From a virus, in the IMG/VR virus record IMGVR_UViG_3300045988_117831: DNA of 64,000 bases; one strand, given 5' to 3'. Both the position numbers and the translations under genes were made by a program. Each line of letters begins with the position of its first letter. The stretch's first letter is position 1. Under the pieces are notes generated by a model, which had not been told where the DNA came from, made no database searches, and saw nothing but the letters and a program-made list of their open reading frames with translations. This document shows positions 6,138-59,467 of the stretch, in pieces.

Positions 6138-6688
6138 ACATCGAACAAATCATGAGCCGCGAACTTCACGACCTGGTGGTTAAATGGGCTTCCGACCGTA
6201 ACCTGATCAAAGGCTCGTCTGCGAAAGATCAATTCCTGAAGTTGGTCGAAGAGTTCGCAGAAGTATGCGAAGCCTGGGTTCAGAACAACCCGGTCGATGT
6301 GAAAGATGGCATCGGCGACGTAATGGTGGTTGCCACGATCATGGCCGCGCAACTCGGCGAAAATCTGTTCGATCATCTGTCGGCCTTCATCGAGAGCGGC
6401 GAAGTACATCCCACCTACGGCGACGATTTGCAGCGCCTCGGCGATCTGGCAGGCGCTCTGGCACGTGGAAATCATGGGTTGGCCATCAAGAGCCTGGTAT
6501 CGGCCGCCATGACTCTGTTCGACGTGACGGAAGAGCCTGACACCACCATGCTCGCCTGCTACGCTGCTGCCTACGACACCATCAAGGATCGCAAAGGCGT
6601 CATGTACGACGGCGTGTTCATCAAGGAGTCGGATGAGCTCTATGCGTCGATCATGGCCGAACTGAACCACGCCAACGAAACCATCTGA
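6134..6688 (+). CDS. mazG: MazG-like all-alpha NTP pyrophosphohydrolase
   Basis: EExxE-type motif KLVEEFAEVCEAW and downstream DGIGDVMVV. The ATG at 6134 overlaps the upstream stop (ATGA) and has an AAGGAA SD. The ORF-track start at 6011 is internal to the upstream gene. Confidence 0.7.
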   Translation: MNIEQIMSRELHDLVVKWASDRNLIKGSSAKDQFLKLVEEFAEVCEAWVQNNPVDVKDGIGDVMVVATIMAAQLGENLFDHLSAFIESGEVHPTYGDDLQRLGDLAGALARGNHGLAIKSLVSAAMTLFDVTEEPDTTMLACYAAAYDTIKDRKGVMYDGVFIKESDELYASIMAELNHANETI

Positions 6689-7725: not shown

Positions 7726-7933
7726 ATGTCGACAAATTAAGCCTTAGACCGGACCCGGCCGCCAGAGTTCCTTGGCCAGAAAGAAGGCGATTTAATATCG
7801 CGGTGCGTATCGTTAAACAGTTAAGCGCGAGCATTTTCGTCGAGTTATAATAACGCCCGACCCTTCCGACTAACACAGCGCATCCCCAAGCCATTATCGG
7901 GGTGAGGAGAAGACCGCAGACAGAGGACTAAAC

Positions 7934-8185
7934 ATGAAACGCAAAGAGCATCGCAAGCGCTTTCGGCCAAGAATCAGCCCAAGACTCCGGGAAGAGTTGA
8001 TATCCGTTCTGACCAAGATCATAGGCGAGACAGTCAAGGACAAGGTAGTAAGAGCGCTGTTAATCGGCGTTCTGAGTTCACTAGGGAACTATGTGGATTC
8101 GGTAACTCAGGAGGAGTCCGCCGCGCCGGTCGAGATCAAGATGGTTGAAGAGGCAAAGCCAGAAAGCAAAAAGGCCGCTGAATAA
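7934..8185 (+). CDS. small basic hypothetical protein (83 aa), isolated transcription unit
   Basis: ORF with SD (GAGGA), flanked by terminators on both sides. N-terminus is Arg/Lys-rich. Confidence 0.5.
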   Translation: MKRKEHRKRFRPRISPRLREELISVLTKIIGETVKDKVVRALLIGVLSSLGNYVDSVTQEESAAPVEIKMVEEAKPESKKAAE

Positions 8186-8200
8186 GCGGCCTTTTCTTTG
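8168..8200. terminator. bidirectional intrinsic terminator between convergent genes
   Basis: AAGGCCGC-tgaataa-GCGGCCTT has T-runs on both strands. The stop codon of the 7934 gene lies in the loop. Confidence 0.65.
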
Positions 8201-8209
8201 GGTGGAATG

Positions 8210-8872
8210 TCAGGAGCCTTGATTGATCGCGGCGATGGTCTTCATATAGCGGTTGATCCGGAGCTGGCCGTGGTTCGCATCGTTAGGCGCGGCGCCGTTG
8301 ATGGTTTTCACGACCAGGGAGAAGTTGTTGGACTCCGCCATGGGGATACAGCGATTGCGCCAGAAGAACCAGGCAGAAGACATCGACGCGCCGGCCGGAG
8401 TTTCCAGAAGCTCCGGTTTCTCCAGAACGTCCATGCCGGAGTCTTCGGCGAACAGGGAATAGTTCGACTTCCCGGTCAGCTGGATCAAGCCGCGCCCGCG
8501 ATACTTCCAACCATCGCCATCCTGCTCGCATCCATTACCCATGCGATCCGCGTACACGTTGTTGGCGATGGCGACCGGGTTACGGGCCAGGCGGTTCGCC
8601 AGAGCGTTCGGGACATACGGGCGGACTCGCGGGTCTACTGCGTACCGGCGAGGCCAGGTGTTGGCCAATCCTTGAGCGCTGTAGTTGAGATTCTCCACCA
8701 GACTTACCAGTCCGCCGGACTCGACGCCGATGTTGGCGAGGTAGGCCGCGATGGCTCGCGGTGACTCGATGTGGAACTTGTCCATGGCCGCCTGGACGTC
8801 ATCCAGCCACTTGATCGCCCGATCCGTGGTGCATCCGGTTCCTGTGATCAAAATATCCTTCGTTATTTTCAT
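8210..8872 (-). CDS. endolysin, glycoside hydrolase family 19 (chitinase-like lysozyme)
   Basis: GH19 catalytic-region signature ..GCEQDGDGWKYRGRGLIQLTGKSNY.. 220 aa. It is the last gene of the - strand virion/lysis operon. Confidence 0.85.
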   Translation of the reverse strand: MKITKDILITGTGCTTDRAIKWLDDVQAAMDKFHIESPRAIAAYLANIGVESGGLVSLVENLNYSAQGLANTWPRRYAVDPRVRPYVPNALANRLARNPVAIANNVYADRMGNGCEQDGDGWKYRGRGLIQLTGKSNYSLFAEDSGMDVLEKPELLETPAGASMSSAWFFWRNRCIPMAESNNFSLVVKTINGAAPNDANHGQLRINRYMKTIAAINQGS

Positions 8873-15728: not shown

Positions 15729-16268
15729 TTAGGAATTATCCTTTTTGATTCTGTTGTGCGATGCTTCGGACGCCAAGGCCTCGTTCACGCTCTTCGCCGT
15801 CATGATGTCTATCATCTTAAACGCATCTTGAGTCGAATAATACTCTTCCAACTCGCGCATAGAGGCTGAGCCGTTCGCGACCAAGCTCGCAACTACAGAA
15901 GGTGAATGTGCCGTCTTCACGCTTTTGATATCTTCGACAAATCTGGATGGAATCTTGACTCCGGTCCAGTCTTTGAGAAAACCAAAGTTCCAGTCGATTA
16001 CCACTTCGGACAGAAGTGCAAGAACTTGTACGGGAGCTATTACTTTCGCTCGATCAACGACATAAAGATTGATGTTCGCAGCAGTCAATGGAAGCCAGAT
16101 GCCTTCCGGATGGTCTTCCGGATGCGCCAATACATCAGTACCCTTGAGCAATTCTTCTGGCGGCACGTTCTGAATTTCCGACATCATGCTGAGCCCATCG
16201 ACAGCAGAGAATTGCCGCGAAGTATAGTGAACTCCGAACATGTTGAATGATTTGATTTCCCTGGCCAT
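15729..16268 (-). CDS. putative baseplate/tail assembly protein (179 aa)
   Basis: Positional only, between the TMP-proximal gene and the spike. Confidence 0.45.
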   Translation of the reverse strand: MAREIKSFNMFGVHYTSRQFSAVDGLSMMSEIQNVPPEELLKGTDVLAHPEDHPEGIWLPLTAANINLYVVDRAKVIAPVQVLALLSEVVIDWNFGFLKDWTGVKIPSRFVEDIKSVKTAHSPSVVASLVANGSASMRELEEYYSTQDAFKMIDIMTAKSVNEALASEASHNRIKKDNS

Positions 16269-17131
16269 TATGCTGCTGGACTCCCCATGACTTTGATATA
16301 GAACGGCCGATCCCGACTGGCCAAATCGTATTCCAGAGCAGTTATTACATAGTTACCATTAACACTTGGATTCATGAGAGATTCGACCGCTACGCCTCCA
16401 GCCACACGAATCGATGGCTCAAACAGACACTGGAATTCCACGCCCCATTCAGACAAAGATGGAATTCCAACAAACGAGTTGACGTTGGTCACCTCATCCG
16501 GACGAATGACTTTATCGCGGTCCTTCACGATCAATATGTCATCATCGACGAACGCGGCCACGTCCGGCATGTACATATCCTGAATCGACGCCAGGATTGC
16601 CGACGCGACAGTGATAGACCGGCCCGGATTCTTCAGAACTTGATCGTTGTAACTGGTATCGCAGATGAAGTTCAATCCCATTTCGTTCGCGCCCCACTCG
16701 ACGAACTTGACAAACGTCGTGTTGGCGGGCGGCATATTCCGAATGGTCTTCGTCCTGTCGATTTGCCTGGTATAGCACTGGATGCGGATTCCAATGTCAG
16801 GTGGCGGAGAAATGATATCGACAATGGCAACTTCGCCGACAAAGACTCTGGAAACTTGCTCGCGCCCCTGGTCAGAGTAGCCGGCTTCCACCGACACCTT
16901 GATCATCAATTCATCTTCCCTGCCCACTTGACGTTGCCGGTGCTTCCACGCGGTGAACTGCGACAGAAGAGACTCGCGCAGCTGAGTGGTGAGGCCGAAA
17001 ATTTCCATCGTCGCCCGGTTCTGAATCCGCAACGCAGCCTTCATAATCCGGACCCGAACATCCAGATCTTCGCGGATGACTTCGGGTCCATAAGGCATGT
17101 TGAATGTTACTCGCAGAATTCTCTTTTTCAT
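16268..17131 (-). CDS. putative distal tail / baseplate hub protein (287 aa)
   Basis: Immediately downstream of the tape measure gene with a 1-nt overlap; positional inference. Confidence 0.5.
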   Translation of the reverse strand: MKKRILRVTFNMPYGPEVIREDLDVRVRIMKAALRIQNRATMEIFGLTTQLRESLLSQFTAWKHRQRQVGREDELMIKVSVEAGYSDQGREQVSRVFVGEVAIVDIISPPPDIGIRIQCYTRQIDRTKTIRNMPPANTTFVKFVEWGANEMGLNFICDTSYNDQVLKNPGRSITVASAILASIQDMYMPDVAAFVDDDILIVKDRDKVIRPDEVTNVNSFVGIPSLSEWGVEFQCLFEPSIRVAGGVAVESLMNPSVNGNYVITALEYDLASRDRPFYIKVMGSPAA

Positions 17132-29296: not shown

Positions 29297-30730
29297 TTAC
29301 TCCCCCTTCAGGTAGCTGTCCAGCTCGGCGCACTGCGGAGCAGAACCGGCCGAATCCTGGGCTTTCGATTGACGGCTGGCCGCGCCGCGCGCGGCTTCGA
29401 CACCTTTCAGGTACATGTCGAGCGCCAGTGCTTCCTGGCCCTTCGCGCAGCTGATATTCAGCTTCTTCACGCCGTAAACAGCGACTTCAGCCGAGTCCAT
29501 AGCTCGGTGATCGAACGCACCAACCACGGAGCTAAGACGCTTGTAGAGGCGATCTTTAGCAGCAATGTCGCGATAGAGACCGCGAATTGCAGCATCTTGC
29601 GCGTTCTTCTGTGCCATTTCAGGAAGTTCCTCGCTGTTATCCTTGCCCTCACCACCATCGTCGCTGGCGGTTTGCGCGCCGCTGAGGCTGCTCTGCTCTT
29701 CCAAGCCCTCGACGACATCTTGACCTTCGCCATGCTCTTCGTCCGCCCCTTCGGCTACCGTGCCCTCCAGTCGAGCCAGAATGGCCTTGACTTGAGAGAT
29801 CAGTTCGGCGACTTCGCCTTCACCGGACATTTCGGATGCGGCACCTTCTTGATGCTCCGGCTCGACGGCGGCCACGGCCGGATCGACAACGGAAGGCTCC
29901 TCTTCCTGCTCTTCGTCATCCTTCTGAGCACCTTCCAGAGTCGGATGCTCGGTCAGGTGCTCGCTGTCGGTCGGTTCGGCCGGAGCTGCGCCTTCCTGAT
30001 GCTCCGGCTCCTGCTCTTCTTCGCCCAGGAACTTCTGGACAGACGCAGATAGCTTCGGCCACAGGGCGCGCAACTCTTCGACCGCCGAGTCAGCAGCTTG
30101 CCCTACGCGCTGGACAGGGGGCTTCCGCTTGGCTTTCTTGAGACTCATTTCATTACCCTCATCGGATGGTCTGAAATCAAAACTGAGATGGTCAAAACAC
30201 AGACCATCCAATACTCTGGCCCCCGGCACACGACCCTCTTTTACCAGGGCAATGTGGTTGCCGCGCATCTTGTCCTGGACGACTTCATAAGGTGTTCCGT
30301 TCCAGATGCCGGGTTGCTCAGTGTAGCGGCAACTATAGCCTAGGGACAGGTCTTCTTTGCCCCTTTCCAGCTGATTCTGCATGTTGCGGGAATAGATGCG
30401 GATATCGCCGCGTGCCCATGGGGCTTCGTAGTAAGCGTTGGATGTGATGATGCCCTCCACCCCTTTGTCTTCGGGGGCCACGCTATCGTCATCATCGTCG
30501 AATCCCGACAGCATCTCATGCTCGTCGATCAACGGGAGATTCTTCAGAGATTCGATGTACTCCGGATCGCTGACGGCAGACTCCGGGCGATATACGTTGA
30601 CAATCCGCGTCGGATCGCCCGGAAGACCGAGTTGACCAGCAGAATATTGGAAAACGCCATAAGAGCTGATCGGGCAGCCCTCTATGGTCATATATCCATT
30701 TTCGTCAATTTTTCTTTTCGACTTTGCCAT
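29297..30730 (-). CDS. prohead protease-like (DUF2213-type) N-terminal domain fused to an acidic scaffold-like C-terminal region
   Basis: N-terminal motifs ..VYRPE..LIDEHE..GNHIALVKEGR... The central region is extremely acidic with a duplicated EPEHQEGAA unit. 477 aa. Confidence 0.6.
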   Translation of the reverse strand: MAKSKRKIDENGYMTIEGCPISSYGVFQYSAGQLGLPGDPTRIVNVYRPESAVSDPEYIESLKNLPLIDEHEMLSGFDDDDDSVAPEDKGVEGIITSNAYYEAPWARGDIRIYSRNMQNQLERGKEDLSLGYSCRYTEQPGIWNGTPYEVVQDKMRGNHIALVKEGRVPGARVLDGLCFDHLSFDFRPSDEGNEMSLKKAKRKPPVQRVGQAADSAVEELRALWPKLSASVQKFLGEEEQEPEHQEGAAPAEPTDSEHLTEHPTLEGAQKDDEEQEEEPSVVDPAVAAVEPEHQEGAASEMSGEGEVAELISQVKAILARLEGTVAEGADEEHGEGQDVVEGLEEQSSLSGAQTASDDGGEGKDNSEELPEMAQKNAQDAAIRGLYRDIAAKDRLYKRLSSVVGAFDHRAMDSAEVAVYGVKKLNISCAKGQEALALDMYLKGVEAARGAASRQSKAQDSAGSAPQCAELDSYLKGE

Positions 30731-30869
30731 CGTTAATTCGAAGAGTCGTGGACTATGGCTGTATTATATACGCAGTACATCTAAGGGTAAATAAGCGGAA
30801 CAATAATTAGATGTAGCCGTGACTGTTAACTTACATTATAATTTGTATTATGATCTAATTACCAGTTTC

Positions 30870-31210
30870 CTCAGCCGCGAAAATCCGGTAATTTGGTCTC
30901 GGAAACTTGACGGGATTTGTCTAAGCCTACTGCCGCGAGGCTTTCAACTCCTAAACTAATTCAAATTACCAATTTACCGATTAAAAATTGAATTTCAATA
31001 CGTCTAGAGCATATAGATTGACGTTATATTATAACGTTACTTATAGATGAATTCTATTGGAACGTTACTTCTAATTTCCCAGGCTATATACTTTTGAAGC
31101 ATGCGGCTAAATCGGAAATTAGGAACTGGCTCTGTTAAAGCCTCGCGGCAGTAGGATTTCCAAATTACTGCTATTTTCCGTAAACGGTAATTTGCGGCTA
31201 TCCGGACTAG
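30870..31210. repeat. non-coding repeat element R1, homologous (~85% over an 80-bp core) to 50385-50690
   Basis: Core 30899-30978 (CGGAAACTTGACGGGAT..TGCCGCGAGGCTTTCAA..CAAATTACCAA). A perfect 19-bp inverted repeat at 30926-30944 and 31137-31155 flanks a ~190-bp AT-rich core. The core carries AACGTTACTT x2 and TATACTTTTG. Confidence 0.8.
31064..31092 (+). promoter_or_regulatory. promoter-like GTTACT-17-TATACT inside R1 (variant of the TTTACT family), + strand, no coding target
   Basis: Sequence only. It points antisense to the 31380-31586 gene. Confidence 0.3.
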
Positions 31211-31379
31211 AATTTTTAGTCAGAATCCAGATTTTTCTCAGTATCATCGGCCAAAGCCATCAAGATGGCGAAGCCGATGATTGCCAAATCGATGGCGGCA
31301 AACTTCAGGCTGAAGAATCCGCCGTGAATATTGGCCCTGATTACATCGACCACGAGTCGGCGCCGGCACGTCTTGCGGT

Positions 31380-31586
31380 TCATTTCACGAGCCTCGACAG
31401 AGAGTCCACCAGGGCGCGAAGATCGGCGACGAGCTCAGGCGAACAATCTTTCGCCGTCTTCCCTTTCTCACTGCGCTGGATGGAGTAAGCGATGGCCGCA
31501 GCCTGCTTTGGGTCCTTACCGGCTTCGATTTCCCGCTTGATGTTTTCAGAACGAGCCTCATTGGAATTGCCATGAACTAACGGCAT
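31380..31586 (-). CDS. small charged hypothetical protein (68 aa)
   Basis: GGAG SD; downstream of the MuF-like gene. Confidence 0.55.
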
Positions 31587-31604: not shown

Positions 31605-32444
31605 TCAAATGATCGGTATCTTTCTGCACCTACAGTTAATCGCCCATCCTGGCGGCCCCTGGTCTGCTTTCGGACCCTCCCAAAGTCTGGGGTCATTCAG
31701 CTTGAACCTCTTCCCATCTTTCTCCAGGTGGGTGTGGCGAGGAGTCTTGCCGGCAGAAGAGTGTAGCCACTCGAACTCCTCGACTCCATTTTCCGCCATT
31801 CTCTCATCGCTCAGAGAACTGTAAAGCTTGCTTGTTTGATCTCTTGCGATGAGTTCGATTCGATCTTCAGAAAACTTCCCGACTTTGCGAAGTGCGTTAG
31901 TTATGCCGGAAGTTCCTTGCTCTTCCGGATTCGGGGAAGTCAGAGACAGCATTACTGATGTGTAAATCTTCTCGTGGACTTCCTCTTGGATCTTGGTGAT
32001 GAGAGTATGATTGTAAGTGGTTGCGGCCTCCAGGGTGTTCCTGACGCTCTCATTATACGCAGCTCGTGGCTGATCGACGCCGGCCACCGACAAGCTGTGA
32101 AGGGTCGCGGCAGTGGCGGCTTCTTCGGTCCGGTTGACGAACTCCGGGGCGATCTTGGCCGCGAAACCTTCAAAAATGCGGCTCCATCGCTGCTGTAGGC
32201 TTCGAAGGGTCATCTTGAACAGGACGTTAACGGATTCGTCTCTGGCGAAGAACCGTTCGGCCGCAGGCTGGGACAGCGCCTTCTCAATCTCGTTTCGATA
32301 GTCGGAGATCATGAGCTTGGACATATCCTTCATCTGCTTTCGATACCAGGCCTCGATTCCTGCCGATGGAATTATGGGCTTCCCTCTTCCGACTGGAAGA
32401 GGTGCCCGGCGCTCGCGCTTTTTGGAGGCCTTGAATGCCATCAC
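31605..32444 (-). CDS. head morphogenesis protein, Mu gpF / SPP1 gp7 family
   Basis: C-terminal ..PPGWAINCRCRKIPI-COOH is typical of the MuF family. Overlaps the portal gene stop (ATGA). Confidence 0.75.
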   Translation of the reverse strand: MMAFKASKKRERRAPLPVGRGKPIIPSAGIEAWYRKQMKDMSKLMISDYRNEIEKALSQPAAERFFARDESVNVLFKMTLRSLQQRWSRIFEGFAAKIAPEFVNRTEEAATAATLHSLSVAGVDQPRAAYNESVRNTLEAATTYNHTLITKIQEEVHEKIYTSVMLSLTSPNPEEQGTSGITNALRKVGKFSEDRIELIARDQTSKLYSSLSDERMAENGVEEFEWLHSSAGKTPRHTHLEKDGKRFKLNDPRLWEGPKADQGPPGWAINCRCRKIPII

Positions 32445-34738
32445 TCGCCCCCGAATGGTTTGGTGGTGTCGCCGTTCGCCAGCCAGCGACGGAAAGCGGG
32501 CAGGTCAACTTCATGGATGGAGCCGAGACCATCCCAGCCCGGACGGAAGCAGGACAGATATCCGGACTTCGCATCGTTGATGTTGTTGAAGCCGAGCATA
32601 CACTTGTGCTCGTCAAACTGACCTTCCTTGTTCACTTGGTTGACGACGAAGACCCGTTTGGATCCCAGATTCGGACCGACGAAGCAATCGACTTCATCCC
32701 CATCAGCGCCTTTCGTTCCCTTGATGAACCCGTAGTGGTGTTTCATCTGAACTCGCCAACTCCCATCCTTTCCTTGCCGAATGCTTCCGCGCGGATTTTC
32801 GATCAAGGTGGTTATTCCATTCACCTTGATTCTCTGGAGTTCCGAATGATCACGAGGCCCGATGATGCGGTTGGACGAAAACACCGAAGGCTCCATGCCA
32901 GACACGCCAGGTTGGGACGTGCGCTTTAAGCCAGGCGCATCATTGTGCTCTATGTCTACGCCGTCCGGCGCCTTAATGTCGTCCAGGTCTTGGAGCTTCG
33001 ACAAAAGATCGACCAACAAGTTCCGCAGCTCGGCCTTGGGGTCCGGTCGCGACGGCGGTTCAGCGGCCTCGCTGGCCCCTTCCTCGGCCGCTTTCGCGAG
33101 AGGCTTAGTCCCGCGTGGAGCGGCGGGAACCGGGCCGCCTGCGCCCTCTACGGCGCCCGCCTGGGCTTCGGCTCGCTCGGCTTCGCCTTTCGCCTTTGTC
33201 GACTGTGCACCGGCCTTCTCGAATTCGGCCAGGTTTTCCGGAGACATGCCCGGTTCGGTTTCTGCCTGATCGTCGGTGAGTCGGTTGTAGCCGGAACGCG
33301 GATCGTCGCGCAGACGCTCGCGAACTTCATCCGGAGACACAACGCCAGAGTTGATGTAGATTTCGTCGGTAGCGGCTTTCTTGTTGTTCAATTCGGCTTG
33401 TTGCTGGCTGGACGTGGAGTCTACAGGATTCCAGACGATTTCCAGCTGCACATCGATTTCTTCCGACTTCGCCAGAAGCAAATAGTGGCGTTCAAGAAGT
33501 GGGTCGAATATGTGCTCTTGAATGGACTCCAGTTCTTCGTGATAAGAAATCGTTTCGTGCTCACCAGTGGCATTGAATCCTTTTGGAGAAGTGCCGAGGA
33601 GCTTCGTGGCTGGAGTCTTGGCGATGGCCGCGACCAGCTGATATTGGTTCATGATGATGCTGTCGAAGTCGGCCAGGTTCGTGTCGAACTGCTCCATGCC
33701 TTCGTCAATTCCCAGAACTTTCACGCCGTGGTTATCACGGTTGGCGATCCAGAACGCCAGGCGAGCGTTGAAGGCCTCTTCGTTCGCGATGGCCTTCTCC
33801 ACGTCAACGTGGATGGTGCTGGTTCGCTTCGACATGGCAAGCAGCGGGGCTTCGTTCGCCGTCCGTTCCGCTGCATACACGCGCTCATAGATTCTCTGGG
33901 TGAGCGGGATACCGCCGAAGATGTATGTAGGCTTCAGGATATCTGGCGGCTGCGGTCCACGAACCACCACTAGGTGGCTGCGGTGATATTTTTTGCCGCT
34001 GATAATCCAGAAATCCGGCTCATAGAAATGTTCGGAAGACGGATCTGCCGTCGAGCCAGCAGTGAGCTGCGGCATTGCCCAGTATGGATCGATCTGGGAG
34101 ATTCCCTTGTAGGAGCCGGGCGTGATTCCATCCGGATTGAACGGCTTTTCGTAGTAGTCCGGATCGTCAGACTCCACGACGAACAGCGCGATACGAACGC
34201 CGAAAACGTTCTTGAATCTGTTGAGTTCGACAAGGTTGTCTTTGACGCGAAACTCCATGTCGCGCCGGGCGATCAGCGCGCTTTGTTCATCGGATAGCTT
34301 CCTGCCGTCCGATTTGAGTTCCCATCCGTTCCGTGCTGCGTCTTCCCCAGACATGGAACAAGCTTTGTCCACCAACCAGTGCTGGGAAATGATTGCGCAA
34401 GCTTGGTATCCGATAAACCCTTGGGAATTGTACCAGTCCTGCAACATAGTCGGGACGACATAGGGATTCTGGCCGCCCGCAGCAGCCTTCGCGGCCGGAG
34501 TTGGTCCATCACCATACGCACTATCCATCGCTACAGATAGGCCCGGCTCCAGGAAATCTTTCACACTACGAATGACCGGGGTTTTCTCCGGCTCGACGTT
34601 CCAGCCGCGAATCCTTCCCAGCTTGATCATGGGGTCGAGCGGATCGTGTTGAGGGATTTGTGCGACTTTCTCCGGCGCCGATTCCGAACAGGCAGCATTA
34701 TCCTTTTTGCGCCCGAATATCCAGGAAAGTTTAAACAT
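32441..34738 (-). CDS. portal protein with long acidic C-terminal extension
   Basis: 765 aa. Position directly upstream of the MuF-like gene, and portal-like core. Confidence 0.6.
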   Translation of the reverse strand: MFKLSWIFGRKKDNAACSESAPEKVAQIPQHDPLDPMIKLGRIRGWNVEPEKTPVIRSVKDFLEPGLSVAMDSAYGDGPTPAAKAAAGGQNPYVVPTMLQDWYNSQGFIGYQACAIISQHWLVDKACSMSGEDAARNGWELKSDGRKLSDEQSALIARRDMEFRVKDNLVELNRFKNVFGVRIALFVVESDDPDYYEKPFNPDGITPGSYKGISQIDPYWAMPQLTAGSTADPSSEHFYEPDFWIISGKKYHRSHLVVVRGPQPPDILKPTYIFGGIPLTQRIYERVYAAERTANEAPLLAMSKRTSTIHVDVEKAIANEEAFNARLAFWIANRDNHGVKVLGIDEGMEQFDTNLADFDSIIMNQYQLVAAIAKTPATKLLGTSPKGFNATGEHETISYHEELESIQEHIFDPLLERHYLLLAKSEEIDVQLEIVWNPVDSTSSQQQAELNNKKAATDEIYINSGVVSPDEVRERLRDDPRSGYNRLTDDQAETEPGMSPENLAEFEKAGAQSTKAKGEAERAEAQAGAVEGAGGPVPAAPRGTKPLAKAAEEGASEAAEPPSRPDPKAELRNLLVDLLSKLQDLDDIKAPDGVDIEHNDAPGLKRTSQPGVSGMEPSVFSSNRIIGPRDHSELQRIKVNGITTLIENPRGSIRQGKDGSWRVQMKHHYGFIKGTKGADGDEVDCFVGPNLGSKRVFVVNQVNKEGQFDEHKCMLGFNNINDAKSGYLSCFRPGWDGLGSIHEVDLPAFRRWLANGDTTKPFGGE

Positions 34739-49391: not shown

Positions 49392-49961
49392 CTAAATGGG
49401 GTTGGCGCGGTCTTCCTCGGTCGGTTCCGGAGACGGAGACGGGAAATCTCCCTCTTCACCTTCCGGCACATAGCCATTGGCTTCGGCCGCAGCAGCGACG
49501 GTCGCGGTCTGAGCCTCGGCTTCTGATGCGTAGAAATCGGCCAAACCGCGACCGATCCGGGTCTTGCCCGACTCGTCCACGAACGTGATTTCAGCCAGAA
49601 CGTTCAATTCCTTGATGGCCGACAGACGGCTGGAGTCCTTGACGGTGGGGTCACGAACCATTTGGAGGAGTTCGTGGAGCGCCGTCTTTGGATTCCACAA
49701 ATCGGACGTTTTGGTCGCGTTCAACTTGGCCTTGAACTGCTTGCGATAGTACGGGTTGGACTCCATCGCGAAGATGCGGGCCTGCGCGGGACCGTCCATA
49801 TGCTCCTCGCCCCAGATGGCCCGGAAGACCCGCCAGGAGCTGTAACCTTGGACGCGCAGGTCGATGTACAGGTCGAATCGCTTTTGGTTGATCGCCGCGA
49901 AATGCGGGTCTGCGAATTCCTGTGGCGTGACTAGATCGTCGGGGCTGTAGAATTTGGTCAT
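49392..49961 (-). CDS. possible terminase small subunit-like DNA-binding protein (start uncertain)
   Basis: ..KRFDLYIDLRVQGYSSWRVFRAIWG.. then ..SRLSAIKELNVLAEI.. resembles the HTH and oligomerisation pattern of P27-type small terminases. Alternative starts: GTG at 50042 (no SD) or ATG at 49961 (weak SD). Confidence 0.35.
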   Translation of the reverse strand: MTKFYSPDDLVTPQEFADPHFAAINQKRFDLYIDLRVQGYSSWRVFRAIWGEEHMDGPAQARIFAMESNPYYRKQFKAKLNATKTSDLWNPKTALHELLQMVRDPTVKDSSRLSAIKELNVLAEITFVDESGKTRIGRGLADFYASEAEAQTATVAAAAEANGYVPEGEEGDFPSPSPEPTEEDRANPI

Positions 49962-50384
49962 TTGGTGCTGCGTCCCTGAGTTCGATTCTGGAGTCGTCGT
50001 GGTGGCTTGGTTGGCGGATGGCCCTGGTGCTCTGCGCGACACTGAGTATGGCGCGATTGTACTATGGGGCCAGGGATCGCGTCTATGGGCTGCTTGTGGG
50101 TGGCCTGTAGGTCTGGGTGGGTTTGATGGTGAATGAGTGTTAGGTGGTGTTATAGGATGTTATATGGGCGGTCTGCTGGTGGGTGAGGGTCGAGTCGGCG
50201 GTTGGTGGGTGAGGATGGCGGTGAGGGTTTGGATTGAGTGTTAAATCGAATGTTAGAAATATGTCCAGCTGAGCGATTCTGTCGCGCTCCCAAATTTCCG
50301 GTTCCGTTCGTCGAGTTTTGGCACTTGCCGCTTAGTCCGCCGTGGTGTTGCCGCGACCCATGGATTGGAAGTCCGGAAGTTTCC

Positions 50385-50690
50385 GGCGACCCTGCCGCGA
50401 ACTGGCTGGAATCGGAAACTTGACGGGATGTGTACAAGCTTAGTGCCGCGAGGCTTTCAAATACTAAAGTATACCAAATTACCAAATTACTATTAATTTA
50501 ATTAATTTTAAAGATAGGTAACGTCCGTGATAGATTTTTTCTATTAGGATTGTGCAATCGATTTTCGCTGTAGTATACTTTTGCGGCTGCATCCGAAACC
50601 GGAAATTATCCGTTAAAGCCCTTCAAACCCACGCGGCACTAAGGCTAGGCCCTAATTACCGGTTTCGTAAATTACCGGTAAGCTCGACGC
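50385..50690. repeat. non-coding repeat element R2, homologous to R1 (30870-31210)
   Basis: Core 50411-50490 is 85% identical to 30899-30978. An imperfect inverted copy at 50615-50644 matches 50438-50456. Shared AT-rich core with TATACTTTTG (50574-50583) and AATTACC motifs. Confidence 0.8.
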
Positions 50691-50874
50691 GGCCGACCCC
50701 AAAAATCCAGTCAGAATCGGCGATTTTCCACAATTCATCCAATCACCACACAAAATCCTCGATCCACCGTCCACGAACTTTCCATAACGCAACATCACCA
50801 CCCCATCCTAATTACCGGATAGCTTCCGAATCTCACTCGTCCACCACCGAAATTAATGTACGCCGCACCAAAGA

Positions 50875-50903
50875 AAAAGACCGCCCGAAGGCGGCCTAGT
50901 CCA
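50875..50903 (-). terminator. intrinsic terminator for the primase-helicase operon
   Basis: On - strand: GGCCGCC-ttcg-GGCGGTC followed by TTTTTCTTT. Confidence 0.7.
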
Positions 50904-58573: not shown

Positions 58574-59467
58574 ATGGAACAGAAAGACCAGAACGAGCAG
58601 ACCCAAGGCGAAGAGCTGACCAAGGAACAAGCAGCCGCCCTGCGCAAGGCCGAGAAGGCCGCTGAGCGTCAACGTAAAGAGCGCGAGCGCGCCGAGAAGG
58701 CCGAGGCCAAGGCCAAGGAAGCCGAACAGAAGAAAGCCGAGCGCGAAGAGAAGCGTAAGGCCGAGCGCGAGAAGAAAGAAGCCGAGCGCGCCGAGAAGGC
58801 GAAGGAAAAGGCCGCAGCCAAGGAAGCCGAGCGCGCTGAAAAGGCCAAGGCGAAGGAAGCCGAGCAGGCCGAGAAGGCGAAGGCGAAGGAAGCCGAGCGC
58901 GAGCAGAAGAAGGCCGAGAAGGAAGCCGAGCGCGCCAAAAAGGCCGAAGAGAAGAAGGCCGCCCAGGAAGCTCAGAAAGTAGCTCGCGAAGAAGAGCGCA
59001 AGCGCCTGGCCGAGCAGAAGAAGGCTGAGCGCGAAGCCGAGAAGCAGCGCCGCAAGGAAGAGCAGGAAGAGCGCCGCAAGAAGGCCGAAGCCCGCCGCGA
59101 AGACCTGAAGTCCAACGGCTCGCGTCGCCCCCGCGCCACTCACTTCATCCCGACCGGCGACGGCCATGGCACTCCGCAGGCCTTCTCGACTCGCGGCAAG
59201 GTGTTCGCATACATCAACGAGCACTGCACCGTTGGTGAGCCGGTCGAAATCGAATCCTTCGGCGATAAGGTGGCCCATCTTCTCTATGGCACCTCGGTCC
59301 GCAGCTACCTGAGCAAGCTGGAAATCATGGGCTGGGTCGATCTGGTTGCCATCGCTTCGAAGGAAGACGAAGCTGGCCAGGGCGATGACGAGAAGGCCGA
59401 TGACGAAGGCCAGGAGCACGGAGGTGAAGATCAGGGCGCCGATGGTTCCGAAGGTGAGGAGGAGTAA
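58574..59467 (+). CDS. highly charged Lys/Glu/Ala-repeat protein with globular C-terminal domain and acidic tail (297 aa)
   Basis: About 170 aa of AEKAKAKEAE-type repeats, mirrored by nucleotide repeats at 58660-59100. Confidence 0.6.
   Translation: MEQKDQNEQTQGEELTKEQAAALRKAEKAAERQRKERERAEKAEAKAKEAEQKKAEREEKRKAEREKKEAERAEKAKEKAAAKEAERAEKAKAKEAEQAEKAKAKEAEREQKKAEKEAERAKKAEEKKAAQEAQKVAREEERKRLAEQKKAEREAEKQRRKEEQEERRKKAEARREDLKSNGSRRPRATHFIPTGDGHGTPQAFSTRGKVFAYINEHCTVGEPVEIESFGDKVAHLLYGTSVRSYLSKLEIMGWVDLVAIASKEDEAGQGDDEKADDEGQEHGGEDQGADGSEGEEE

What the first reader, a model, noticed from the sequence alone, without database searches (positions are those of the whole stretch)
30731..31379. 650-bp non-coding island inside the head-gene cluster built from a 19-bp perfect inverted repeat, AT-rich core and AATTACC iterons
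Late head operons are normally tightly packed. Here the protease/scaffold gene is separated from the MuF-like and 68-aa genes by about 650 bp with no convincing ORF. The island has a perfect 19-bp inverted repeat (30926-30944 CCTACTGCCGCGAGGCTTT and 31137-31155), about 192 bp apart. The repeat brackets a ~35% GC core carrying AACGTTACTT twice, a palindromic GACGTTATATTATAACGTT segment and TATACTTTTG. At least five copies of AATTACC/GGTAATT surround the repeat. This architecture fits an origin of replication, a pac/TerS recognition region, a looped operator for a dimeric regulator, or a small MITE-like insertion. None of these is expected at this location.
Basis: seen in the sequence. Interest (0 to 1): 0.72.

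Follow-up and report, generated by a model that had tools for sequence, protein, structure and literature searches.

The report
Second pac-like site before capsid genes
The gap in this Pseudomonas PB1-like phage's head-gene cluster holds a known promoter plus a diverged duplicate of the phage's DNA-packaging start (pac) region, and an E. coli phage genus has the same two-site layout, which points to an undescribed second site for the packaging or regulatory protein.

Summary
The window is nearly a whole Pbunavirus (PB1-like) genome, ~99% identical to KPP12 and 14-1.

**Observation.** The 19-bp inverted repeat, AT-rich core and AATTACC repeats are real and non-random. The non-coding gap is 485 bp, not 650 bp, because 31216-31383(-) is a conserved small ORF (gp21).

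**Known part.** The protease-proximal 70 bp is the sigma70 promoter P014, mapped in phage 14-1.

**New part.** Window 30870-31235 is a colinear paralog (63% identity) of 50384-50726, the region between the primase and small-terminase (terS) genes. There, a JG024 nanopore read-start peak and nucleotide 1 of six GenBank records fall at window 50560/50559, so that region is the pac site.

**Shared layout.** Both loci carry inverted CTA[C/G]TGCCGCG[A/T]GG arms and AATT[A/T]CC iterons, which are essentially confined to these two loci.

**Conservation.** E. coli Wifcevirus WFH has the same two loci with a different iteron. The iterons therefore co-vary between the sites within each genus.

**Best reading.** Locus 1 is a DNA-level binding platform for the protein(s) that act at pac, probably TerS. 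It is seldom or never cut and may be regulatory.

**Rivals.**
- RNA processing stem: weaker.
- Replication origin: weaker.
- Shared transcription-factor operator: the strongest rival.
- MITE: rejected.

No binding or function has been shown.

The parts
30731..30755 (-). 5' untranslated leader of the protease/scaffold (DUF2213) mRNA
   Evidence: The 14-1 TSS P014 (13257+) maps to window ~30756, and the protease ATG is at 30730.
30756..30791 (-). Sigma70 promoter P014: TTTACC (30786-30791), 17-nt spacer, TATAAT (30763-30768), TSS ~30756
   Evidence: ONT-cappable-seq TSS in 14-1 (Putzeys 2024, Table S3). The 14-1 sequence is identical to the window here. The consensus scan scores 10/12. LBL3 and JG024 annotators also predicted it.
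30776..30815 (.). 9-bp perfect inverted repeat TACATCTAA / TTAGATGTA bracketing the -35 box of P014; possible operator
   Evidence: the repeat finder pair I18. Function not tested.
30870..31235 (-). Pac-region paralog ('locus 1'): upstream flank, upstream arm, AT-rich core, downstream arm and downstream flank, colinear with 50384-50726
   Evidence: blastn gives 79 nt at 85%, E = 3e-20. Identity is 63% over 333 aligned nt. Global alignment z-scores: core 8.6, downstream flank 10.2, upstream flank 6.2; the reverse orientation gives 0.45.
31137..31158 (.). Upstream arm (in the direction of transcription): AATCCTACTGCCGCGAGGCTTT
   Evidence: The motif TGCCGCG[AT]GG occurs only at the four arms of the two loci, plus one chance site at window 82.
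30923..30944 (.). Downstream arm: AAAGCCTCGCGGCAGTAGGCTT on the minus strand
30945..31136 (.). AT-rich core (31.8% GC). It holds AACGTTACTT x2 and the palindrome at 31020-31038. The position homologous to the pac cut is ~31072/31073.
   Evidence: The cut-equivalent position is inferred from the core-to-core alignment.
30971..30998 (-). Promoter-like TTGAAA-N16-TAAATT overlapping tandem iterons, at the position syntenic to the terS promoter P040
   Evidence: Consensus scan 9/12. Predicted in the LBL3 record. No TSS was detected here in 14-1.
30857..30870 (+). Iterons AATTACC (30857-30863) and AGTTTCC (30864-30870)
30887..30893 (-). Iteron AATTACC(GG)
30901..30908 (-). Iteron variant AAGTTTCC(G). 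It lies in an 18-nt block, ATCCCGTCAAGTTTCCGA, that is identical in both loci.
30964..30978 (+). Tandem iterons AATTACC and ATTTACC, syntenic to 50477-50491 in the pac region
31073..31079 (+). Iteron variant AATTTCC
31114..31120 (-). Iteron variant AATTTCC(G) just inside the upstream arm, syntenic to 50601-50607
31186..31192 (-). Iteron AATTACC(G) outside the upstream arm
31216..31383 (-). gp21 small hydrophobic ORF: 55 aa here, 46 aa in 14-1 and SCUT-S1. It is coding, so it is not part of the non-coding island.
50384..50726 (-). 'Locus 2', the pac region and the paralog of the island. Arms at 50622-50643 and 50439-50460; core 32% GC.
50559..50561 (-). Packaging-initiation cut site: ...GCGAAAAT | CGATTGCAC... 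on the minus strand. Packaging proceeds toward terS.
   Evidence: The JG024 read-start peak at 59,376 and a ~15-kb pac fragment (PMC10913387). A fixed read termination in Ab27-29 (PMC4482731). JG024 59,376 and Ab27 nt 1 both map to window 50560. BrSP1 and Pa193 start at the same base; PB10 and PS44 start one base later; fHoPae01 starts at the same base according to the blast coordinates.
50456..50496 (-). terS promoter P040: TTAATA-N17-TGgTATACT. Its spacer is made of two tandem iterons, and the TSS falls in the downstream arm.
   Evidence: 14-1 TSS 59399(+). Consensus scan.
49392..49961 (-). Small terminase gene (terS)
   Evidence: phmmer against PDB 7UXE 'Small terminase', E = 5e-125.
50878..50897 (-). 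Intrinsic terminator after the primase gene, upstream of locus 2
   Evidence: Also listed in JG024 Table 3.

Best explanation
The island has two parts.

**(1) Shown.** Its protease-proximal ~70 bp is the host-type sigma70 promoter P014 and the leader of the protease/scaffold-capsid operon.

**(2) Shown.** The remaining ~365 bp (30870-31235) is a diverged, colinear duplicate of the phage's packaging-initiation (pac) region. That region lies 19.5 kb away, just upstream of the small-terminase gene. Both copies have the same order of sites:
- iterons of the family AATT[A/T]CC(G);
- an arm, CTA[C/G]TGCCGCG[A/T]GG;
- an AT-rich core;
- tandem iterons overlapping a promoter-like element;
- the inverted arm;
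- an 18-nt block identical in both copies;
- further iterons.

**(3) Inferred.** The island works at the DNA level as a second assembly platform for the sequence-specific protein(s) that recognise pac. The most likely candidate is the ring-shaped small terminase, whose gene the pac copy precedes. At pac this complex directs the large terminase to cut in the AT-rich core, ~110 bp upstream of the downstream arm.

At the island, cutting is rare or absent, since no virion ends have been reported there. Binding would then titrate or position the protein in front of the capsid-protein operon. It would also occlude the internal promoter-like element. The effect would be to couple capsid-gene expression to terminase level, or to provide a back-up start site.

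The identity of the protein and the consequence of binding are untested.
For: **Identity of the phage and fixation of the island**
- The region matches Pbunavirus genomes; the island is present in one piece in 295 of 299 records.

**Paralogy**
- blastn finds 79 nt at 85%, E = 3e-20.
- Identity is 63% over 333 aligned nt with syntenic motifs.
- The cores align colinearly with z = 8.6, against 0.45 in the reverse orientation.

**Motif exclusivity**
- The arm motif occurs only at the four arms, apart from one chance site.
- AATTACC lies in the two loci in 8 of 9 copies, P = 9e-14. The looser iteron family is 19 of 47, P = 3e-21.

**Locus 2 is pac**
- JG024 long reads start at 59,376 and a pac restriction fragment is seen.
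- Ab27-29 show a fixed read termination.
- Both map to window 50560.
- Further GenBank records begin at that base or one base later.
- The downstream gene is TerS, PDB 7UXE.

**Promoters**
- P014 and P040 are mapped TSSs in 14-1.

**The arms behave as sequence motifs, not as pairing partners**
- In most Pbunavirus genomes the locus-2 arms carry 2-4 mismatches to each other while keeping TGCCGCG.
- The same GCCGCG-type arms flank AT-rich cores in tabernarius, XcP1, an uncultured relative (L052) and WFH.

**Co-variation of iterons between the two loci across genera**
- In E. coli Wifcevirus WFH both the protease-upstream gap and the genome-end/terS-upstream region carry GATACGGAT iterons.
- They also share a nearly identical ~48-nt block: ATCTTACGGATGATACGGATGATACGCGT[C/T]GCCGC[T/G]ATACTTTATA.
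- The record's physical left end lies in the AT-rich core.
Against: - No DNA end, transcript end or protein binding has been reported in the island. JG024 and Ab27-29 each showed a single preferred end, at locus 2.
- No more than 4 of 299 records could start inside the island.
- A review reports that recombinant E217 TerS showed no appreciable DNA binding in vitro (PMC9611059). I could not read the primary paper to see which DNA was tested.
- Island divergence between clades (10.9%) equals that of four-fold degenerate sites in the adjacent protease gene (10.9%). It is lower than in MuF and portal (36%). Purifying selection within the genus is therefore not demonstrated.
- Tabernarius and XcP1 lack iteron paralogy at the protease-upstream gap. 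Tabernarius shares only the GCCGCG hairpin.
- Within locus 1 the arms stay complementary through one double change, which would also fit an RNA stem.
Confidence: 0.55

Rival explanations
1. Shared operator for a dedicated transcription factor rather than for terminase. A phage- or host-encoded DNA-binding protein recognises the iterons and arms at both loci and controls the promoters embedded there: P040 for terS, and the promoter-like element and P014 for the capsid operon. On this reading the pac cut in locus 2 uses other determinants.
For: - Tandem iterons form the spacer of the mapped promoter P040 and overlap the promoter-like TTGAAA-N16-TAAATT in the island.
- The iterons in the L052 relative (TTATC-N-GATAA) are palindromic, which is typical of dimeric helix-turn-helix regulators.
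- E217 TerS reportedly binds DNA poorly in vitro.
Against: - No candidate regulator gene is linked to either locus. The neighbours gp20 and gp21 have no Pfam match.
- The physical genome end lies inside the element in two genera, at a similar distance (~100-110 bp) from the downstream arm. This ties the sites to packaging.
Confidence: 0.2
2. RNA element. In read-through late transcripts the two arms pair into a 19-22-bp duplex closing a ~190-nt domain. This would be an RNase III-type processing or stabilising site separating the portal-MuF message from the protease-capsid message.
For: - The sense-strand RNA folds with the arms paired: -81.3 kcal/mol, z = -6.9.
- No terminator-like site lies in the island, and no TTS was mapped there in 14-1.
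- Across 13 Pbunavirus sequences the locus-1 stem keeps 19-22 pairs. It shows one G:C to A:T double change and one G:C to G:T change that is a wobble only on the sense strand.
Against: - The antisense strand folds almost as well (z = -6.2), as expected for DNA dyad symmetry.
- There is only one compensatory event.
- At locus 2 most genomes have 2-4 mismatches in the arms. The mapped TSS lies between the arms, and a terminator precedes the upstream arm, so the duplex cannot form in most transcripts.
- The arm primary sequence is conserved between genera instead of co-varying freely.
- Rfam gives no match, even at E = 1.
Confidence: 0.12
3. Replication origins. Both loci are iteron-plus-AT-rich-unwinding-element origins. 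One lies next to the primase gene, and the DNA ends at locus 2 are a coincidence or are replication-related.
For: - Iterons in both orientations flank a 32% GC core.
- Locus 2 directly follows the primase gene.
- Promoters are embedded, as in transcription-activated phage origins.

Against: - Ends are found in virion DNA with a pac fragment and a coverage gradient, which is the behaviour of a headful pac site.
- The published cumulative GC-skew minima of Pbunaviruses lie in the polymerase/replication gene block, not at either locus (PMC12390725).
- No initiator protein is known.
Confidence: 0.1
4. MITE-like or other mobile insertion, or functionless spacer left by rearrangement.
For: - A perfect inverted repeat and low GC relative to the genome.
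- Only neutral-level conservation compared with the neighbouring protease gene.
Against: - Homology between the two copies extends 50-80 bp beyond both arms, so the arms are not element termini.
- The island sits at the same place in 295 of 299 records.
- Equivalent islands at the same position in Wifcevirus and the L052 lineage carry lineage-specific iterons.
- The 19-mer arm gives only single, unpaired chance-level hits in 185,579 bacterial genomes, and none in Pseudomonas.
Confidence: 0.03

Closest known systems
pac site of Bacillus phage SPP1 (pacL-pacC-pacR), recognised by the small terminase G1P (from my own knowledge of the literature; not re-read here)
   Same: - Protein-recognition boxes on both sides of a cleavage region.
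- Located at or upstream of the terS gene and overlapping late promoters.
- Headful packaging proceeds in one direction from the cut.
   Different: - The flanking sites here are inverted copies of a 12-nt arm plus a separate heptamer iteron family.
- TerS binding has not been demonstrated.
- A second, apparently uncut copy sits in the head-gene cluster. SPP1 has one pac.
pac site of coliphage P1: hexamer repeats in two clusters flanking the cut (from my own knowledge)
   Same: - Multiple short iterons in two clusters on either side of a central cleavage region of ~160 bp.
- The cut positions are set by the flanking sites rather than by the cut sequence.
   Different: - Different motifs.
- No evidence here for methylation control or IHF.
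- The element is duplicated.
Phage T4 gene 16 pac-like sequence and its homolog in gene 19; Black's terminase 'synapsis' model (from my own knowledge; not checked here)
   Same: Two homologous terminase-related sequences in one genome, one at the terS gene and one among the structural genes.
   Different: - The T4 sequences are short and lie inside coding regions.
- Here both are several-hundred-bp non-coding elements with arms, iterons and promoters.
- Synapsis here is pure speculation.
Putative Pbunavirus pac site at JG024 position 59,376 (Ipoutcha et al. 2024, PMC10913387) and the Ab27 genome end (Essoh et al. 2015, PMC4482731)
   Same: Both are locus 2 of this window (50560), of which the island is the paralog.
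   Different: - Those papers report only a position.
- I found no description of the arm/iteron architecture, of the paralog in the head cluster, or of its conservation in Wifcevirus, in the papers I could search.
Sigma70 promoter P014 of phage 14-1 (Putzeys et al. 2024, PMC10914365)
   Same: The promoter-proximal part of the island has the identical sequence and position.
   Different: It accounts for only ~70 of the 485 bp.

Membership tests
Headful packaging initiation (pac) site | A preferred virion DNA end or first cut maps in the element | tested here: not met
   For the island, the two published end-mapping data sets report a single site, which maps to locus 2. At most 4 of 299 GenBank records could begin in the island, while several begin at 50560 or 50559. 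This evidence is indirect; weak secondary cutting is not excluded. For locus 2 the feature is met.
Headful packaging initiation (pac) site | Lies in or next to the small-terminase gene | tested here: not met
   The island is 19.4 kb from terS, between gp21 and the protease gene. Locus 2 is 0.4-0.6 kb upstream of terS.
Headful packaging initiation (pac) site | Sequence homology to a site shown to be pac in the same phage group | tested here: met
   The island is a colinear paralog of the mapped pac region. The same relation holds in Wifcevirus WFH.
Headful packaging initiation (pac) site | Specific binding by the small terminase | not testable with these tools
   This needs EMSA, footprinting or ChIP. 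E217 TerS reportedly shows little DNA binding in vitro.
Sigma70-dependent promoter | -35/-10 hexamers with a mapped primary 5' end | tested here: met
   TTTACC-17-TATAAT at 30763-30791(-). The 14-1 TSS P014 has the identical sequence.
Iteron-type replication origin | Iterons adjoining an AT-rich unwinding element | tested here: met
Iteron-type replication origin | Strand-composition switch or initiation mapped at the site; cognate initiator gene | tested here: not met
   The published GC-skew minima lie elsewhere, and no initiator was identified. Initiation mapping is not possible with these tools.
MITE / transposon with terminal inverted repeats | The inverted repeats form the termini of the repeated unit; dispersed copies exist | tested here: not met
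   Homology continues beyond both arms. There are only two fixed copies. No paired copies occur in bacterial genomes.
Structured RNA / RNase III processing stem | A helix supported by covariation and specific to one strand | tested here: inconclusive
   Locus 1 shows one compensatory pair and one wobble. The locus 2 arms are mismatched in most genomes. Both strands fold similarly. No Rfam family matches.

The most novel reading that the evidence does not exclude
Pbunaviruses, Wifceviruses and probably related myoviruses keep a conserved two-site system. One site is the true pac site at terS. The other is an uncut pac-like twin directly in front of the prohead protease-scaffold-capsid operon. 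Both are read by the same fast-evolving DNA-binding protein, probably TerS. The twin would let the terminase small subunit double as a regulator that couples capsid production to packaging capacity. Alternatively, it would pair with pac to license concatemer cutting.
Probability: 0.3. Interest if true: 0.75.

Novelty: new variant of a known kind. Interest (0 to 1): 0.6.

Why it matters
**Biology**
- Pac sites are defined for only a handful of model phages.
- For PB1-like phages, which are widely used in therapy cocktails, only a candidate coordinate has been published.
- This analysis gives that site an anatomy of arms, iterons and an AT-rich cut region.
- It also shows that a twin of the site is maintained in the capsid-gene cluster across at least two genera, with iterons that change together at both sites.
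- If the twin binds terminase, it would be a new link between packaging and late-gene control.

**Practical points**
- Genome-engineering and rebooting designs that treat the 485-bp gap as a neutral insertion site may disturb a functional element.
- Plasmids or host DNA carrying either element could be preferentially packaged, which is relevant to transduction risk.

Tried and rejected
- **tRNA, tmRNA and Rfam.** Nothing found at the gathering threshold over the whole window, or at E <= 1 on the island.
- **MITE test.** The 19-mer arm gave only single chance-level hits in 185,579 bacterial genomes.
- **IMG/VR scans with short exact patterns.** A 16-mer and a 14-mer returned mostly unrelated chance hits.
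- **IMG/VR two-iteron pattern**. This recovered only the already known protease-upstream place of the L052 contig. I could not see that lineage's terS region.
- **Primase-based locus search.** It found only Pbunaviruses.
- **Purifying-selection test** against four-fold degenerate sites. It was ambiguous, because the adjacent protease gene is as little diverged as the island, probably a shared recombination block.
- **My first impression of two compensatory changes between the paralogs.** This did not hold across genomes. Most Pbunaviruses carry a locus-1-type upstream arm at locus 2.
- **FBPa35, which lacks the island.** It also lacks most of the essential protease gene, so it is probably a misassembled or defective genome and says nothing about dispensability.
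- **PS44.** Its extra 2.6 kb could not be interpreted as simple terminal redundancy.
- **Papers not held.** The primary E217 terminase paper (PMC10026623) was unavailable. The microLife supplement was unavailable, but the bioRxiv version was held.
Full report
**What the window is**

The region and the island match about 300 GenBank Pbunavirus (PB1-like) phages of Pseudomonas aeruginosa. Identity to KPP12 and 14-1 is about 99%. The window runs opposite to the 14-1 reference, so the head genes lie on the minus strand. In order of transcription they are:
- portal, 32441-34738;
- MuF-like, 31605-32444 (Pfam Phage_Mu_F);
- gp20, 31380-31586;
- gp21, 31216-31383;
- the gap;
- DUF2213 head-maturation protease/scaffold, 29297-30730.

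**Checking the observation**

It is perfect over 19 bp, and 22 nt at 95%, with 192 nt between the arms. Shuffled versions of the island give a mean longest reverse-complement match of 10 nt.

The core is 31.8% GC in a 55.6% GC genome.

Two corrections are needed. First, there are four exact AATTACC/GGTAATT copies, plus about five one-mismatch variants. Second, 31216-31383 is not non-coding:
- It overlaps the gp20 stop codon by ATGA.
- It is annotated in 14-1.
- It encodes a conserved small hydrophobic peptide, 46 aa in relatives.
- Two 1-nt indels in homopolymer runs lengthen it to 55 aa in this genome.

The true gap is therefore 30731-31215, or 485 bp.

**The part that is already explained**

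ONT-cappable-seq of phage 14-1 (Putzeys et al. 2024, PMC10914365) lists a sigma70-type TSS, P014, at 13257(+). I read this in Table S3 of the bioRxiv version. P014 drives gp22, the protease gene.

The site maps to window ~30756 on the minus strand, where 14-1 and the window are identical. The promoter is TTTACC-17-TATAAT at 30763-30791. No TTS was mapped between 14-1 positions 6661 and 35525, and no terminator-like site lies in the island. Earlier annotators of LBL3 and JG024 had predicted promoters here.

**The key new observation**

A search of the island against the window found a second locus. 50412-50490 matches 30899-30977 at 85%, E = 3e-20. Reading that region showed the same architecture:
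- arms at 50439-50460 and 50622-50643;
- a 32% GC core;
- TATACTTTTG;
- AATTACC repeats.

The two loci align colinearly over window 30870-31235 against 50384-50726, with 63% identity over 333 aligned columns. Against shuffles, the cores align with z = 8.6 in the same orientation but 0.45 in the reverse. The flanks outside the arms are also homologous, with z = 6.2 and 10.2. So the arms are internal landmarks of a polar ~350-bp unit, not its termini.

Motif exclusivity supports this:
- TGCCGCG[AT]GG occurs only at the four arms, plus one chance site.
- AATTACC occurs nine times in 64 kb, eight of them in the two loci (P = 9e-14).
- The looser iteron family is enriched 19 of 47 (P = 3e-21).

The iterons are syntenic between the loci. 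There is one just inside the upstream arm, a tandem pair before the downstream arm, and AAGTTTCCG just after it inside an 18-nt block identical in both copies.

**What locus 2 is**

The gene downstream of locus 2 (49392-49961, minus strand) is the small terminase. It matches PDB 7UXE 'Small terminase' with E = 5e-125. The upstream gene is the primase, which is followed by an intrinsic terminator.

Two independent studies place a preferred virion DNA end here:
- Essoh et al. [quoted passage not shown]
- Ipoutcha et al. 2024 found that 36 of 161 nanopore reads longer than 30 kb start at JG024 position 59,376 +/-5. They also saw a ~15-kb XbaI pac fragment and a coverage dip upstream.

I aligned both to the window. 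JG024 59,376 and Ab27 nt 1 fall on the same base, window 50560 on the minus strand (...GCGAAAAT|CGATTGCAC...). This lies in the AT-rich core, ~110 bp upstream of the downstream arm. Other records agree:
- BrSP1 and Pa193 begin at the same base.
- PB10 and PS44 begin one base later.
- fHoPae01 begins at the same base according to the blast coordinates.

Other work supports headful packaging in the genus.

The 14-1 TSS P040 lies between the cut and the downstream arm. Its promoter is TTAATA-17-TGgTATACT, and its spacer is two tandem iterons. P040 and P041 transcribe terS. Locus 2 is therefore the pac/terS control region, and the island is its paralog.

**DNA sites or RNA stem?**

The sense-strand RNA of the island folds with the arms paired (z = -6.9). 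The antisense strand does nearly as well (z = -6.2), as expected for dyad-symmetric DNA.

Across 13 distinct Pbunavirus locus-1 sequences the arms stay complementary. There is one G:C to A:T double change and one G:C to G:T change. This could reflect:
- RNA pairing;
- co-evolving half-sites;
- template-switch homogenisation of a quasi-palindrome.

At locus 2 the picture differs. The window carries a minority-or-equal haplotype with well-matched arms. Most sampled genomes (the JG024 type) have a locus-1-type upstream arm (CCTACTGCCGCG) opposite CGCGGCACTAAG. That gives 2-4 mismatches, with only TGCCGCG perfectly paired.

In addition, the terS TSS lies between the arms and a terminator precedes the upstream arm. 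Most transcripts therefore cannot contain both arms.

Finally, the arm primary sequence recurs in distant relatives:
- The uncultured relative L052 (protease 51% identical) has CACCTAGTGCCGCGTGCG ... CTTGCGGCAGTAAGG, ~165 bp apart.
- Tabernarius has a 15-bp perfect GCCGCGC-containing repeat ~290 bp apart in its primase-terS gap. It also has a GGCGCGGCA-N16-TGCCGCGC hairpin upstream of its protease gene.
- XcP1 has GCCGCGAGT/ACTCGCGGC in its primase-terS gap.

Conservation of the sequence rather than of the pairing favours protein recognition.

**Conservation of the two-site system**

Related phages also have a non-coding, AT-rich gap directly upstream of the protease gene:
- L052, ~450 bp, with at least eight TTATC[C/G]GATAA iterons;
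- the L055/L057 lineage, with GTTGCGGA iterons and a 60-nt imperfect inverted repeat;
- XcP1, 370 bp, with no paralogy detected;
- E. coli Wifcevirus WFH, 422 bp at 34% GC.

WFH is decisive. Its gap carries at least nine ATCCGTATC/GATACGGAT iterons and GCCGCG arms around a very AT-rich core, followed by TTGCCT-17-TATAAT before the protease ATG.

The region around the WFH genome end has the same iterons. It also shares a ~48-nt block that is nearly identical to one in the gap. The record begins at the left end of a ~3.7-kb terminal repeat, ~360 bp upstream of terS (Korf et al. 2019). Nucleotide 1 lies in the AT-rich core, ~35 nt after the upstream arm and ~100 nt before the downstream arm plus iterons.

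So two genera whose protease and TerS are only ~40-44% identical each keep two loci that share a genus-specific iteron and a common arm. The simplest reading is a single, rapidly evolving DNA-binding protein that reads both loci, with both loci under selection to follow it.

**Mechanism**

Shown:
- the promoter P014;
- the paralogy between the two loci;
- the mapping of virion ends to locus 2;
- the exclusivity and synteny of the motifs;
- the cross-genus pattern.

Inferred:
- The island is a protein-binding platform shared with pac.
- The protein is TerS. Its gene follows pac, small terminases are the usual pac-recognition subunits, and its sequence diverges quickly. Against this, recombinant E217 TerS reportedly binds DNA poorly in vitro.
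- Binding at the island is mostly non-cleaving and regulatory. Iterons overlap a promoter-like element syntenic to P040, and the element sits 80-450 bp upstream of the strong capsid-operon promoter.

A weak secondary pac function is not excluded. By homology the cut would fall near window 31045-31075.

**Rivals**

- A dedicated transcription factor acting at both loci is the strongest alternative.
- The RNA processing stem and replication origin readings have some support, but each conflicts with specific observations given under the rivals.
- The MITE reading is rejected.

**Novelty**

P014 and the candidate pac coordinate are published. [quoted passage not shown] A few records mark one arm as an unexplained repeat_region.

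In the papers I could search, I found no description of the following:
- the arm/iteron anatomy of the pac region;
- its duplicate in the head-gene cluster;
- the conservation of the pair in Wifcevirus.

I class it as a new variant of a known kind (terminase-recognition/pac-type elements). It is of moderate to high interest to phage-packaging specialists and is directly testable.

Noticed in passing
window 50100-50250 and 50700-50860: The pac region is flanked by mirror-image strand composition. In the terS-sense direction a GT-rich stretch comes before it and a CA-rich, G-poor ~150-nt stretch comes after it, inside the ~400-nt terS leader. GC skew reaches +0.35 at 50001-50400. WFH has the same GT-rich upstream flank, and XcP1 has a CA-rich CCCCAGAACAA x4 repeat downstream. 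Function unknown.
   Followed up: partly
window ~50583-50790 (upstream half of the pac region): Pbunaviruses fall into two sharply different haplotypes here, while everything from ~50583 down to terS is nearly invariant. The mosaic boundary lies 20-30 bp upstream of the pac cut, as if the terminase-generated end were a recombination hotspot.
   Followed up: partly
L052 840-1500; L055/L057 1130-1450; L235 (WFH) 16007-16428; L217 (tabernarius) 1330-1483: A non-coding AT-rich island directly upstream of the DUF2213 protease gene recurs in relatives whose protease is 43-51% identical. Each has its own iteron: TTATCSGATAA, GTTGCGGA or GATACGGAT. Each ends in a sigma70-like promoter.
   Followed up: partly
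L235 1-135 and L236 680-920 (WFH record ends): The WFH record starts inside the AT-rich core of its pac-like region. The published '3.7-kb terminal repeat' may therefore be the terminal redundancy of pac-initiated headfuls rather than fixed direct terminal repeats.
   Followed up: no
window 30776-30784 / 30807-30815: A 9-bp perfect inverted repeat (TACATCTAA / TTAGATGTA) brackets the -35 box of promoter P014. It lies outside the pac-paralogous part and is a possible separate operator.
   Followed up: no
window 31216-31260: gp21 ends differently in this genome. Two 1-nt indels in T and A runs replace ...MAFGR* (14-1) with ...MALADDTEKNLDSD*, moving the stop 27 nt into what is non-coding in relatives.
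   Followed up: yes
window 50150-50730 (minus strand); JG024 gp77, E217_00077, Epa7 gp27: Many GenBank records annotate a 170-220-aa 'hypothetical protein' across the pac region. It spans the mapped cut site and the P040 TSS. In this window it is broken, with only a 111-aa TTG ORF. It is probably not a gene.
   Followed up: partly
L211 (phiMoody, KT254131) locus 2: The record has a ~146-nt insertion containing an N and a second copy of the cut-site sequence (TACAGCGAAAATCGATTGCACAATCC...). This looks like an assembly artefact at a physical DNA end.
   Followed up: no
L203 (FBPa35, ON857938) 7840-8648: This record lacks the island, gp20, gp21, part of MuF and most of the protease gene, a deletion of ~2.3 kb. 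It also has other deletions. It is probably a misassembly or a defective genome.
   Followed up: partly
L234 (PS44, KM434184 65900-68871): The PS44 record starts one base after the pac cut but is 68,871 bp long. Its last 3 kb matches window 45266-42626, which should lie ~5-8 kb from the start. This duplication or rearrangement is unexplained.
   Followed up: partly
window 29297-30730 versus neighbouring genes: Between this genome and the SCUT-S1 clade, four-fold degenerate sites differ by 11% in the protease gene. In MCP, gp23, portal and MuF they differ by 24-37%. The island (11%) groups with the protease gene, suggesting a recombination block whose upstream edge is at gp21.
   Followed up: partly
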